Shown piece by piece: positions 24,001 through 27,000 of a stretch of 64,000 bases of DNA (the stretch's first letter is position 1; the number at the start of each line of letters is the position of its first letter). Source of the DNA: Escherichia coli (lineage in GTDB: Bacteria > Pseudomonadota > Gammaproteobacteria > Enterobacterales > Enterobacteriaceae); assembly GCF_050920415.1 (NCBI RefSeq), contig NZ_CP169309.1. One strand, 5' to 3'. The position numbers are program-made.

Positions 24001-27000
24001 CGGATTGCGGCTCATTGATTTCGACGAACGCGCTTTCCAGTTGTGGCAGATCTGGCATGGTCGGCATTTTGTAATCCAGCAGATTGGGGTTACGTACCAC
24101 GCCGCTTTTCGCATCGATGATCATCTCTTCAAATAGCGCCCAGCCAATGCCCATCCCCATTCCGCCGTGTACCTGACCTTCTGCCAGCAACGGATTAAGA
24201 ATATGACCCGAATCATGAACGTTGAGGATGCGGTTGATGGTGACTTTGCACAGCGCAATATCGACAGTCAGATCAACAAAGGTACAGCCAAACGCCGGTG
24301 GGTTAGTGGTGGTTTTGATGGAGCTTTCGGCAGAGAGCTGCCCGCCGCGTTCAGGGTGGTAGAAGGCGTCCATCGCCAGATCTTTTAACGACAATAACGA
24401 TTCCTCCGGTCGTTCAACCAGCGCGATATGGCCTTTTATTAGGGTCAGATTCATTGCTGACTGATGTAGCATGACAGCGGCGTGAGCGATGATTTTCTCT
24501 TTTAATAACAGTGCCGCACTGCGCAACGCAGGCGCGGCAACATAGCTCTGGCGTGAAGCAAATGCGCCGGGATCGAACGGCGTAACGTCGGTATCTTGTG
24601 TTGAAATAACGCGAACGTCGCTGACCGGAACCCCTACGGTTTCTGCCACCATTTGCGAGAACACGGTGTCGGCACCCTGGCCGATTTCCGTCGCGCCGCT
24701 TTGCACATTGATGGTTCCATCCTGATTCATCAGAAGGCGCGCGCCGGCTATTTCTACGCCGACAGGCCAGGTGTTAGAGGTGTAGCTAAAACAGGCGACG
24801 CCAACGCCCCGGCGTAAATTGCCTTGCTGGTTCTGGCATTCTGCACGGCGTTTTTCCCATTCAAAGATTTTCCGGCCTTTTTCAAGACACTCCGGTAACC
24901 CTGCGCTGTAAATACGTTTGCCCGTGAGCGGATTAGCATCTCCTTCGCGGGCGGCGTTGCGTAAACGAATTTCAATAGGATCAATATTTAACGCTGTCGC
25001 GGCGTCATCAAGCATTGACTCAACGGCAAATACGACTTGTGGCGCGCCATAACCGCGCATCGCTCCAGCCGAGGGGAGGTTGGTATAAAAGGTCTTTGAA
25101 CTGTAAGCGTAGGCACAACGAGGATAAAGGTAAGCGACTTTATTCCCGCCCGCAGAAGCGATGGAGTGCCCGTGAGATGCATAAGCGCCTGTGTTAGACA
25201 GAACATCCAGACTATAGCCTTTCAACGTTCCGTCTCGGTTTACGCCCATTTGCCCGTCAATAGTAAAAGCGTGGCGGGTACGGGTTGCGAGGAAACACTC
25301 TTCACGGCTAAGGGAAACTTTCACCGGAATGCCGCCGAGCTTGCTGGTCAGAAAAGCCGCCATGGGCTCTTCCAGCACATCCTGTTTATTACCAAAACCG
25401 CCACCGACAAACGGTTTGATGACTCGTACGCATGACCAGGGAATACCCAGCGCCTGACCAACCACGCGGCGAACAATGTGCGGGATCTGGGTGCTGGAAA
25501 CGATGGTAATTCGTGAATCATCTTCCATCCATGCCAGAGAGGTCACGCTTTCCATATGACAATGTTGAATGACCGGCGTCTGATAGTGCCCCTGGACCTG
25601 GTGATCGGCGGCATCAATTGTTTGTTGGACATTGCCCGTCGACATCGTGCTTTGTTTAAGTAAATTACCGCCGTTATGGATTGGTGCTGCATCTTCTGCC
25701 AACGCCGCTTCTGGTGTGGTGATAACAGGTAATTCTTGCCACTCAATGCTGACCAATTGCGCCGCTTTTTCTGCAGTAAGTTCATCGCGGGCAACGACGA
25801 TGGCAACGGCGTCACCATGATGACGAACATGGCGAGTTAGTAGTGCGCGATCAGCGGTATCGCGCTTATTTTCGTCAAGTGTCCAGGCATGCCCCGCTGT
25901 AGCGAATGGGATATCAGGCACATCTTCCCAGGTAAAAATTGCCAGTACGCCTGGTAAACTTCTGGCTTGTTCATCATTAATACTTACGGCATAACCATGT
26001 GCGATAGGGCTACGTACATATTTCGCGTAACACATGCCCGCCATAACATAATCGTCAGTATATCGTGCCCGCCCAGTGACCTTAGCAATGGCATCGACGC
26101 GCATGCATGATTCACCCGTAGCGGTTGCTTCCCGCGCTTCCATAGAAATCCCCTCGATTTGAACATTTGGTTCTTATGGCAAAGATTTAGTCTAAGCAGG
26201 CAAGATTTACGCCAGAAACGACGATAAACGTTAGGGGAGGAAGGAAGTGTGATGACGTTAAAAAAATACAGATACGATACGAAACAGGACTTTAAATAGG
26301 GACAGTGATACGTATCAATATGAGTGGCGATAAAATCAATGTGATAAATTAGGATTATTACGCATCAGGATGGGAAATAGGGTAAAAGAGTCAGGAACTT
26401 CGATACCTCTACAGCGAATATTTTGCTTATGATACTTCCCTTTGCCAAATGAAATTAATCTCTTTCTCAATTATCTCGTTTTTCCAGAAGCAAGAGATTG
26501 GGTATCAAGTGGCTGGCTGCTATGATATGGCGTCTTGTTTTTTAAGCGAGGAAAGATTTTGAGTGCGGGACGCCTGAATAAAAAATCTCTGGGTATCGTG
26601 ATGTTGTTATCGGTTGGACTGCTTTTGGCGGGCTGTTCGGGTAGCAAATCATCCGATACAGGAACGTATTCCGGCTCCGTTTACACCGTGAAACGGGGGG
26701 ATACGCTATATCGTATTTCGCGCACCACGGGAACCAGCGTAAAAGAACTTGCGCGACTGAACGGCATTTCACCCCCTTACACCATTGAAGTTGGTCAGAA
26801 ACTAAAACTGGGTGGGGCGAAAAATAGCAGTAGTACACGTAAAGCAACCGCCAAATCAACGACCAAAACCGCATCGGTTACACCGTCATCAGCGGTACCG
26901 AAATCTTCCTGGCCGCCAGTAGGGCAACGTTGTTGGTTATGGCCAACGACAGGGAAAGTTATCATGCCGTATTCGACAGCTGATGGCGGCAATAAAGGGA

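What the first reader, a model, noticed from the sequence alone, without database searches (positions are those of the whole stretch)
26199..26317. Candidate sigma54 promoter and upstream palindrome in front of xdhABC
The minus strand carries CTGGCGTAAATCTTGCC (TGGC-N8-TTGC, exact GG-N10-GC spacing) about 85 nt upstream of the xdhA start. A perfect 12-bp palindrome TGATACGTATCA (26306-26317) sits ~95 bp further upstream, where an enhancer-binding-protein site would be expected. The only sigma54 activator gene in the region, ygeV, is adjacent. This points to a YgeV/RpoN-controlled xdh operon.
Basis: partly seen in the sequence, partly recalled or inferred. Interest (0 to 1): 0.55.

Follow-up and report, generated by a model that had tools for sequence, protein, structure and literature searches.

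The report
Known xdhA sigma-54 promoter, misplaced enhancer
The sigma-54 promoter in front of the E. coli xanthine dehydrogenase operon is real but already published, and the activator site is more likely a conserved pair of TATCA-N3-TGA boxes that the reported palindrome only clips, not the palindrome itself.

Summary
CTGGCGTAAATCTTGCC (26215-26199, minus strand) is letter for letter the sigma-54 ChIP-seq site OS29 upstream of xdhA (Bonocora 2015). That paper lists it as experimentally confirmed in EcoCyc. The same sequence was printed in 2010 with rpoN-dependent xdhA expression. It is the best sigma-54 matrix hit in the window and is kept in 29 orthologous loci from at least 11 genera.

The 12-bp palindrome is no rarer than chance: 15 such palindromes in the window against about 20 expected. 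Its right half is not conserved, even in other Escherichia clades. Its left half (TGATA) is the outer arm of a conserved element, TATCAyAATGA-N10-13-TCAwwwTGATA. These are two TCA-N3-TGA cores about 21 bp apart, at -152 and -131, at a nearly fixed distance from the promoter in all 30 sequences.

The same box lies upstream of the other three ChIP-mapped sigma-54 promoters of the cluster (ygeW, ygfK, ygfT). CTCATATTGATA is shared exactly by three of the four. The box is therefore the best candidate for the operator of YgeV, the only sigma-54 activator in the window. No binding data exist, and I found no description of it in the papers I could search. An FNR-site reading of the palindrome is weak.

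The parts
26199..26215 (-). Sigma-54 -24/-12 promoter element of xdhABC, CTGGCGTAAATCTTGCC (GG 26213-26212, GC 26201-26200).
   Evidence: matrix score 15.87 bits, best in the window; kept in all 30 orthologous sequences at 13.9 bits or more. It is identical to Bonocora 2015 site OS29 and to the Zhao 2010 Table 2 sequence.
26188..26188 (-). Predicted transcription start, 19 nt downstream of the motif centre (Bonocora's convention).
   Evidence: Inference. It was not mapped here.
26336..26346 (-). Candidate YgeV box 1, TATCACATTGA. The TCA-N3-TGA core is centred at -152.
   Evidence: present in all 30 orthologous regions. Scores 17.5 bits with a matrix built from the other species only.
26313..26323 (-). 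Candidate YgeV box 2, TCATATTGATA, core centred at -131, 21 bp from box 1. It belongs to the 12-mer CTCATATTGATA shared with the ygeW and ygfT upstream regions.
   Evidence: 19.7 bits; repeat family D2, spacing 21.
26306..26317 (.). Positions 26317-26313 are the end of box 2. The right half, 26311-26306, is specific to E. coli proper.
   Evidence: FNR-like score is 11.71 bits, below the weakest bound FNR site.
26247..26266 (-). Conserved middle block TTTTTTTAACGTCATCACAC (-78..-59): a T-tract followed by CATCACA. It may be a bend or a co-regulator site. Its role is unknown.
   Evidence: (conserved columns). It does not fit the IHF consensus by eye. No IHF peak at these coordinates in Myers 2013 Table S4.
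26141..26155 (-). Shine-Dalgarno GAGGGG plus the long-ORF ATG (26143) of xdhA.
   Evidence: conserved across genera.
22481..26143 (-). xdhABC operon, the transcription unit served by the promoter.
20663..22441 (+). ygeV, the only sigma-54 enhancer-binding protein gene in the window (PAS, AAA+ sigma-54 interaction domain, Fis-type HTH_8).
20278..20294 (-). ygeW sigma-54 promoter CTGGCACACTTATTGTT (Bonocora OS30).
20468..20507 (-). Two candidate YgeV boxes upstream of ygeW: TATCAATATGA (20507-20497) and TATCAAACTGA (20478-20468).
   Evidence: the first box sits 215-216 bp from the promoter 17-mer in all 12 of the scanned loci that hold ygeW (9 named genera).
10641..10657 (-). ygfK sigma-54 promoter GTGGTGCGATTGTTGCT (Bonocora OS31).
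10826..10838 (-). Perfect 13-bp box TATCATTATGATA upstream of ygfK (-208..-196).
   Evidence: (19.65 and 18.56 bits).

Best explanation
xdhABC is transcribed from a sigma-54 (RpoN) promoter whose -24/-12 element is CTGGCGTAAATCTTGCC. RNA polymerase with sigma-54 sits there as a closed complex and needs an ATP-driven enhancer-binding protein to open it.

The enhancer is not the 12-bp palindrome. It is a conserved composite dyad immediately upstream of and overlapping it: TATCAcatTGA (26346-26336) and TCAtatTGATA (26323-26313). These are two TCA-N3-TGA cores 21 bp apart, about two helical turns, centred at -152 and -131.

The most likely binder is YgeV, through its C-terminal Fis-type helix-turn-helix. 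It would reach the promoter by DNA looping, perhaps helped by the conserved T-tract/CATCACA block at -78..-59. The same box sits upstream of the ygeW, ygfK and ygfT sigma-54 promoters. One activator would therefore switch on the whole purine/urate catabolic cluster.

What is shown: the promoter (sequence, conservation, published ChIP-seq and rpoN-dependent expression), and the conservation and regulon-wide sharing of the box. What is inferred: that YgeV is the binder, that looping occurs, and what the middle block does.

The right half of the palindrome is a lineage-specific sequence of E. coli proper with no demonstrated role.
For: Promoter:
- The identical 17-mer is ChIP-seq site OS29, fold-above-threshold 11, listed as 'confirmed' in EcoCyc.
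- xdhA rose 4.9-fold on sigma-54 overexpression and fell 2.1-fold in an rpoN deletion, with the same sequence printed.
- It is the top matrix hit in the window.
- It is kept in 29 loci from at least 11 genera as 14 distinct 17-mers, all at 13.9 bits or more.

Enhancer:
- All 30 xdhA upstream regions carry the two-box dyad. The box-to-GG distance is 104-107 nt for box 2 and 126-129 nt for box 1 in 28 of 30. In Hafnia both are shifted by about 21 nt, close to two helical turns (alignment).
- A matrix built only from other species puts 6 of its 7 best window loci inside the ygeV cluster. Four of them are directly upstream of the xdhA, ygfK and ygeW sigma-54 promoters. About 0.23 hits of 17 bits or more are expected in random sequence, against 6 loci found.
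- The only hit of 9 bits or more in the adjacent 10 kb lies upstream of the ygfT sigma-54 site.
- An unbiased k-mer test finds that the only 9- to 12-mers shared by at least 3 of the 4 upstream regions are pieces of CTCATATTGATA.
- The ygeW box sits 215-216 bp from its promoter in all 12 scanned loci that hold ygeW, from 9 named genera.

Activator and linkage:
- YgeV has PAS + Sigma54_activat + HTH_8 domains and is the only such gene in the window.
- The module stays with xdhA in genera where actS is not the upstream neighbour.
- Co-expression places xdhABC, ygeWXY, ygfK, ygfT and uacT in one module. ygfT expression is reported to fall in a ygeV mutant.
Against: - No direct YgeV-DNA binding data exist, here or in any paper I could search.
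- No experiment has tested xdhA expression in a ygeV mutant.
- In Kluyvera, Hafnia and Enterobacillus the boxes are kept, but no ygeV lies within 8 kb of xdhABC. Co-occurrence with ygeV could therefore not be checked there.
- The box is AT-rich. Its single best window hit lies in an unrelated AT-rich island (yqeJ, 55309-55323), and others lie inside ygeY and yqeC.
- The boxes at ygeW, ygfK and ygfT sit near -200, farther upstream than at xdhA.
- The transcription start was not mapped.
Confidence: 0.7

Rival explanations
1. One reading: the perfect palindrome TGATACGTATCA is itself the YgeV binding site, one dimer on one 12-bp dyad at about -123.
For: It is a perfect dyad at a typical enhancer distance. 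It is retained in K-12, and 5331 of 5426 E. coli genomes keep at least 95% identity over the surrounding 41-46 nt. Its right half recreates a TATCA pentamer, which is the arm of the conserved box.
Against: It is absent from all 29 orthologous loci, including E. albertii, E. whittamii and the cryptic Escherichia clades. Those read TGATACACTGCC or similar, yet keep the promoter and both boxes. No similar palindrome is found upstream of ygeW, ygfK or ygfT: the nearest 2-mismatch match, TGCTAAGTATCA, is no better than chance (6 found, 2.95 expected). Perfect 12-bp palindromes are at chance frequency. TATCACTGTCC lacks the TGA arm.
Confidence: 0.08
2. The palindrome is an FNR (or other CRP-family) site, TTGAT-ACGT-ATCAc. 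It would give oxygen control of xdhABC in E. coli proper, possibly by competing with the activator for box 2.
For: It matches the FNR consensus TTGAT-N4-ATCAA at 9 of 10 positions. A 2024 paper cites Salmon 2003 for FNR regulation of xdhABC. The cluster functions anaerobically.
Against: With a matrix from the 63 ChIP-bound FNR sites it scores 11.71 bits, below the weakest bound site (11.73) and only seventh best in the window. It is not among Myers 2013's predicted FNR sites. No FNR peak and no FNR-dependent expression entry for xdhA or ygeR appears in that paper or its held tables. It is not conserved outside E. coli proper (orthologous sequences score -15.6 to 2.3 bits). At -123 from a sigma-54 start it is not at an FNR activating position. 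The only sigma-70-like match that uses it is at chance level. Salmon 2003 could not be read.
Confidence: 0.08
3. The conserved TATCA-N3-TGA boxes are real regulatory sites but are bound by a protein other than YgeV. That could be a nucleoid protein or an unlinked regulator. YgeV would bind elsewhere or act from solution.
For: There is no binding evidence for YgeV. The boxes are AT-rich. In three genera the boxes persist without ygeV nearby. CRP-like and PurR-like boxes in the same regions show that several regulators converge here.
Against: The boxes occur specifically upstream of the four sigma-54 promoters of the one cluster that encodes YgeV, at conserved, near-fixed distances from the -24 element. 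The C and G positions are close to invariant, which argues for base-specific contacts (information per position). No other regulator gene is part of the conserved cluster.
Confidence: 0.14

Closest known systems
xdhA sigma-54 promoter of E. coli K-12 (Bonocora et al. 2015 site OS29; Zhao, Liu and Burgess 2010 Table 2; listed in EcoCyc).
   Same: The 17-mer CTGGCGTAAATCTTGCC is identical, in the same position relative to xdhA (84 nt to the K-12 start). K-12 and the window are identical across the promoter, both boxes and the palindrome.
   Different: Nothing beyond strain-level substitutions elsewhere in the intergenic region. This is the same object.
NtrC enhancer at glnAp2 (my own knowledge: two strong dyad sites near -140 and -108 upstream of a sigma-54 promoter, acting by looping).
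   Same: Two dyad-symmetric sites on the same face of the helix, 100-160 bp upstream of a -24/-12 promoter. The cognate activator has an AAA+ domain and a Fis-type HTH. The distance to the promoter is conserved.
   Different: The sequence is TATCA-N3-TGATA rather than TGCACC-N5-GGTGCA. The site spacing is 21 bp rather than about 32 bp. The sensory module is PAS rather than a receiver domain. Binding is unproven here.
The other sigma-54 promoters of the same cluster: ygeW (OS30), ygfK (OS31) and ygfT (OS32).
   Same: ChIP-mapped sigma-54 sites with the same TATCA-N3-TGA box upstream. CTCATATTGATA is shared exactly by xdhA, ygeW and ygfT.
   Different: Their boxes lie near -200 to -235 instead of -131/-152. 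ygeW and ygfK also carry clear CRP-like and PurR-like boxes, which xdhA lacks.
FNR box (TTGAT-N4-ATCAA).
   Same: The palindrome plus its flanking T matches 9 of 10 consensus positions.
   Different: It scores below every ChIP-bound site. It is not predicted or bound in Myers 2013, is not conserved, and is wrongly placed for FNR activation.

Membership tests
Sigma-54 (RpoN) dependent promoter | GG and GC doublets exactly 10 nt apart within a TGGCAC-N5-TTGCW-like element. | tested here: met
   CTGGCGTAAATCTTGCC has GG-N10-GC. It scores 15.87 bits, above 73% of 130 ChIP-bound sites and best in the window.
Sigma-54 (RpoN) dependent promoter | Correct orientation and short distance upstream of a gene, conserved in orthologues. 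| tested here: met
   It lies 54-82 nt before the long-ORF ATG in 29 of 29 loci from at least 11 genera.
Sigma-54 (RpoN) dependent promoter | Occupied by sigma-54 in vivo. | not testable with these tools
   Taken from the literature: ChIP-seq peak OS29, fold-above-threshold 11 (PMC4591121).
Sigma-54 (RpoN) dependent promoter | Expression depends on rpoN. | not testable with these tools
   Taken from the literature: 2.1-fold down in an rpoN deletion and 4.9-fold up on sigma-54 overexpression (PMC2831329 Table 2). This is microarray evidence only.
Sigma-54 (RpoN) dependent promoter | Transcription start about 12 nt downstream of the GC, with no competing sigma-70 promoter. | tested here: inconclusive
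   Two sigma-70-like matches in 26100-26600 against 1.3 expected. No start-site data were available.
Upstream activating sequence of a bacterial enhancer-binding protein | Dyad-symmetric site or sites about 80-250 bp upstream of the -24/-12 element. | tested here: met
   Two TCA-N3-TGA cores at -152 and -131, 21 bp apart.
Upstream activating sequence of a bacterial enhancer-binding protein | Conserved in sequence and in distance to the promoter among orthologues. | tested here: met
   Present in 30 of 30 sequences. Box-to-GG distance is within 4 nt in 28 of 30; in Hafnia both boxes are about 21 nt farther out.
Upstream activating sequence of a bacterial enhancer-binding protein | The same motif upstream of the other promoters of the regulon, and rare elsewhere. 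| tested here: met
   Found at ygeW, ygfK and ygfT. Six loci at 17 bits or more against 0.23 expected. A 12-mer is shared exactly by three regions. One strong hit lies outside the cluster, in yqeJ.
Upstream activating sequence of a bacterial enhancer-binding protein | A cognate activator with a DNA-binding domain is encoded in the locus. | tested here: met
   YgeV has Sigma54_activat (2e-70) and HTH_8 (3e-13). It lies next to xdhC.
Upstream activating sequence of a bacterial enhancer-binding protein | Direct binding by the activator, and loss of activation when the site is mutated. | not testable with these tools
   No data here or in the papers searched.
FNR binding site (for the palindrome) | A match to TTGAT-N4-ATCAA of the quality of bound sites. 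| tested here: not met
   It scores 11.71 bits, below the minimum (11.73) of the 63 bound sites. It is absent from the predicted sites of Myers 2013 Table S6.
FNR binding site (for the palindrome) | Conservation in related species. | tested here: not met
   No locus outside E. coli proper has TTGAT-N4-ATCA here.
IHF site (for the middle block 26247-26266) | A match to WATCAANNNNTTR (consensus from my own knowledge). | tested here: not met
   CATCACACTTCCT fails at the W, the sixth base and the TTR positions, by eye. No IHF peak at these coordinates in Myers 2013 Table S4.

The most novel reading that the evidence does not exclude
TATCA-N3-TGA(TA) would be the so far undescribed operator of YgeV. 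Together with four conserved sigma-54 promoters it would define a compact YgeV/RpoN regulon for anaerobic purine and urate catabolism: xdhABC, the ygeW operon, the ygfK-to-xdhD operon, and ygfT with ygfS. CRP-like and PurR-like boxes would add carbon and purine inputs at ygeW and ygfK. A further, less likely twist is that E. coli proper has overlaid box 2 at xdhA with an FNR-like palindrome, allowing oxygen-dependent interference with activation.
Probability: 0.6. Interest if true: 0.4.

Novelty: already known. Interest (0 to 1): 0.25.

Why it matters
The promoter adds nothing new. It has been in the literature since 2010 and 2015, and Bonocora 2015 lists it as confirmed in EcoCyc.

The useful by-product is a concrete, testable operator for YgeV, an activator whose DNA site and signal are still undescribed in the papers I could search. 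YgeV controls the gene cluster that gut E. coli uses to degrade urate anaerobically. That pathway is being engineered for hyperuricaemia and gout, and one group replaced the ygeV-ygeW intergenic region with constitutive promoters. Knowing the boxes, their fixed distances to the promoters and the accompanying CRP-like and PurR-like sites would allow rational promoter engineering. It also gives clean reporter and EMSA designs.

The case also shows that a perfect palindrome can be an accident sitting beside the real, imperfect, conserved site.

Tried and rejected
1. FNR reading of the palindrome. I checked Myers 2013's main text, its 15 supplementary tables and its predicted-site list, and built a matrix from the bound sites. 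The match is marginal and unsupported. Salmon 2003, cited for FNR control of xdhABC, is not held.
2. IHF at the conserved middle block. The consensus does not fit, and no IHF ChIP-chip peak is listed at these coordinates. I left it as 'role unknown'.
3. A sigma-70 promoter alternative. The two consensus matches are at chance level.
4. A structured RNA in the leader or intergenic region. The Rfam search at E-value up to 1 found only the neighbouring tRNA-Gly.
5. A PurR box at xdhA. CTAACGTTTATCGT fits the flanks poorly and is not conserved, so I rejected it. The ygeW and ygfK boxes are better.
6. Literature search for a described YgeV site. Searches on gene names, on 'UacR' (which returned only clinical papers) and on the motif strings themselves found nothing relevant. 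Iwadate and Kato 2019 is not held.
7. Checking whether ygeV travels with the boxes in Kluyvera, Hafnia and Enterobacillus.
8. Searches were empty scripts.
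Full report
**What the window is.** The 461 bp around the finding match 5411 of 5426 complete E. coli genomes and are 100% identical to strain MFDS1022581. In that record's annotation the window runs, in reverse orientation to K-12, as follows:
- guaD, xanQ, xdhD, ygfM, ssnA and ygfK
- mocA, yqeC and yqeB
- arcC, hyuA, ygeY, dpaL and ygeW (18997-20184, minus)
- ygeV (20663-22441, plus)
- xdhC, xdhB and xdhA (22481-26143, minus)
- actS/ygeR (26559-27314, plus), tRNA-Gly, and then the ETT2 type III secretion island

The finding lies in the 416-bp xdhA-actS intergenic region.

**The observation.** Both strings are at the stated coordinates. CTGGCGTAAATCTTGCC is 26215..26199 on the minus strand, and TGATACGTATCA is 26317..26306. 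GG-N10-GC is right.

I built a position weight matrix from 130 sigma-54 ChIP-seq sites printed in Bonocora et al. 2015, leaving out the sites of this cluster.
- The xdhA site scores 15.87 bits. That is the best hit on either strand of the 64-kb window and better than 73% of the training sites.
- Sequence alone is still not proof. The loose pattern is at chance frequency (3 found, 3.08 expected).
- 47% of random 64-kb sequences contain a hit at least as good.
- The significance comes from position and orientation (about 0.002 expected in this intergenic region), conservation and published data.

The palindrome is statistically unremarkable. The window has 15 perfect 12-bp palindromes, and random sequence of the same composition has 20.1 +/- 4.7.

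**The promoter is already known.** Bonocora et al. 2015 (PMC4591121, Table 1) list site OS29 with the motif CTGGCGTAAATCTTGCC. The downstream gene is xdhA, 84 nt from the predicted start, with ChIP-seq fold-above-threshold 11. The site is flagged 'C', meaning experimentally confirmed in EcoCyc.

Zhao, Liu and Burgess 2010 (PMC2831329, Table 2) print tttcTGGCGTAAATCTTGCCTGctta for xdhA. They report a 4.9-fold increase on sigma-54 overexpression and a 2.1-fold decrease in an rpoN deletion.

Lamoureux et al. 2023 place xdhABC, ygeWXY, ygfK, ygfT and uacT in a 'YgeV iModulon'. They note the sigma-54 promoters and cite reduced ygfT expression in a ygeV mutant. K-12 MG1655 is identical to the window across the promoter, the boxes and the palindrome.

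**Comparative analysis of the xdhA upstream region.** One scan of representative genomes with XdhA returned 32 loci. Of these, 29 held the upstream region. They come from Escherichia (several clades), Citrobacter, Kluyvera, Atlantibacter, Buttiauxella, Yokenella, Hafnia, Enterobacillus, Klebsiella indica, Trabulsiella and Pluralibacter.

All 29 keep a sigma-54 element 54-82 nt before the long-ORF ATG. There are 14 distinct 17-mers, all at 13.9 bits or more, with TGGCGT and TTGC invariant.

None has the 12-bp palindrome or any TTGAT-N4-ATCA string. Other Escherichia clades read CTCATATTGATACACTGCC and similar at this position.

The multi-genus alignment shows three conserved blocks.
- **Block a: a composite dyad.** It reads TATCAyAATGA-N10-13-TCAwwwTGATA.
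- **Block b: a T-tract plus CATCACA.** It lies at -78..-59.
- **Block c: the promoter itself.**

The dyad is present in all 30 sequences. The two 11-mer centres are 21-24 nt apart, so the TCA-N3-TGA cores are about 19-22 nt apart (21 in the window). The distances to the GG are 104-107 nt (box 2) and 126-129 nt (box 1) in 28 of 30. In Hafnia both boxes are about 21 nt farther out, close to two helical turns.

In the window the boxes are TATCACATTGA (26346-26336) and TCATATTGATA (26323-26313), with cores at -152 and -131. Its right half belongs to a segment of about 45 bp that E. coli proper has replaced relative to its sister clades, while the box-to-promoter distance stayed at 105.

**The same box marks the other sigma-54 promoters of the cluster.** I built a 15-nt matrix from 39 distinct boxes of the other species, with the window left out, and scanned the window with it. 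The best loci were:
- 55309, inside yqeJ in the AT-rich island
- the two xdhA boxes
- 10824-10840, the perfect TATCATTATGATA about 200 bp upstream of the ygfK sigma-54 site
- 17433, inside ygeY
- 20495-20509, upstream of the ygeW sigma-54 site
- 12214-12230, inside yqeC

Random sequence gives 0.23 hits of 17 bits or more per 64 kb, against 6 loci observed. In the adjacent 10 kb, the only hit of 9 bits or more is TTTCTCATATTGATA, in the ygfT-uacT intergenic region about 200 bp upstream of the ygfT sigma-54 site.

An unbiased test on the four regions from -330 to -40 finds that the only 9- to 12-mers shared by at least three of them are substrings of CTCATATTGATA. In the ygeV-ygeW intergenic region the box TATATCAATATGAGAAT and a second box, TTTATCAAAyTGa, are conserved across genera. 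The first sits 215-216 bp from the ygeW promoter 17-mer in all 12 scanned loci that hold ygeW, from 9 named genera.

**Who binds.** YgeV has a PAS domain, a sigma-54 interaction AAA+ domain (E = 2e-70) and a C-terminal Fis-type HTH_8. It is the only such protein annotated in the window. The module stays with xdhA in genera where actS is not the upstream neighbour, so it serves xdhA rather than the divergent gene.

I therefore infer that YgeV binds the boxes and activates by looping. Binding itself is untested. In Kluyvera, Hafnia and Enterobacillus I could not locate ygeV within the held flanks.

**The FNR alternative.** With its flanking T, the palindrome reads TTGAT-ACGT-ATCAc, a 9 of 10 match to the FNR consensus. 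A 2024 paper cites Salmon 2003 for FNR regulation of xdhABC.

The evidence against is stronger.
- A matrix from the 63 ChIP-bound sites of Myers et al. 2013 Table S6 gives 11.71 bits. That is just under the weakest bound site, and six other places in the window score as well or better.
- The site is not among Myers' predicted sites.
- No xdhA or ygeR entry, and no coordinate near it, appears in that paper or its tables.
- The site is not conserved outside E. coli proper.

I rate this reading as unlikely but not excluded.

**Comparison with known systems and novelty.** Functionally this is a textbook sigma-54 promoter with an upstream enhancer, in the style of NtrC at glnAp2. That comparison rests on my own knowledge: two dyads on one face of the helix, 100-160 bp upstream. 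The promoter is the published xdhA promoter.

I found no description of the TATCA-N3-TGA box or of any YgeV operator in the papers I could search. Many subscription papers are not held, including Iwadate and Kato 2019.

The finding as submitted is therefore already known. Its one original element, the palindrome as activator site, is not supported. The corrected enhancer is a modest new lead for a known kind of element.

Noticed in passing
window 20385-20400 (-) and 10867-10881 (-): PurR-like operators with the AAACGTTT core. AGCCAAACGTTTTCGT lies upstream of ygeW and is conserved in about 10 of 12 genera. GTTAAACGTTTGCGT lies just after the mocA stop, upstream of ygfK. The consensus is recalled from memory, and I did not check it against PurR ChIP data.
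   Followed up: partly
window 20337-20352 (-) and 10720-10735 (-): CRP-like sites between the boxes and the sigma-54 promoters. TGTGATCTACACCACA sits at -85..-70 of ygeW and is conserved across genera. TGTGAGTTCATTCACA sits at -105..-90 of ygfK. PMC12507026 mentions a native Crp site between ygeV and ygeW and glucose repression of urate degradation.
   Followed up: partly
window 2862-2878 (-): The second-best sigma-54 matrix hit in the window is ATGGCGCAAACTTTGCT (15.47 bits). It lies inside the 3' part of xdhD in the sense direction, about 585 nt upstream of xanQ. It is not in Bonocora's high-stringency tables.
   Followed up: no
window 17433-17447, 12214-12230 and 55309-55323: Strong matches to the candidate YgeV box occur inside coding regions. 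They lie in ygeY, in the 3' end of yqeC (about 240 bp downstream of Bonocora's intragenic sigma-54 site IS34, window 11972-11988) and in yqeJ in the AT-rich ETT2-linked island. They may be chance or internal sites.
   Followed up: no
window 26104-26155 (-): The long xdhA ORF starts at ATG 26143 with a GAGGGG Shine-Dalgarno 8 nt upstream. This start is conserved in nearly all genera and is the one RefSeq uses in this strain (765 aa). The K-12 annotation starts 13 codons later (752 aa) and is probably too short.
   Followed up: partly
window about 26268-26311: E. coli proper carries a segment of about 45 bp between box 2 and the T-tract that does not align with the corresponding segment in E. 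albertii, E. whittamii, cryptic Escherichia clades or Citrobacter. The box-to-promoter distance is nevertheless preserved at 105 nt. This suggests that length rather than sequence is constrained.
   Followed up: partly
window 20545-20571 (-): A conserved inverted repeat, TTGATAAAAAC-N6-TTTTTATCAC, lies in the ygeV-ygeW intergenic region about 100 bp upstream of the ygeV start. It may be further YgeV half-sites, or an autoregulatory site.
   Followed up: no
window 26278-26301 and 26359-26382: A 24-nt direct repeat of 75% identity (TACGAAACAGGACTTTAAATAGGG and TACGCATCAGGATGGGAAATAGGG), with copies 81 bp apart start to start, flanks the box region in the xdhA-actS intergenic region.
   Followed up: no
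L009, L010 and L021 (Kluyvera): In Kluyvera, xdhABC is followed by a true xdhD orthologue (88-90% identity) and a permease instead of ygeV and ygeW. No ygeV lies within 8 kb, yet the xdhA boxes and promoter are kept.
   Followed up: partly
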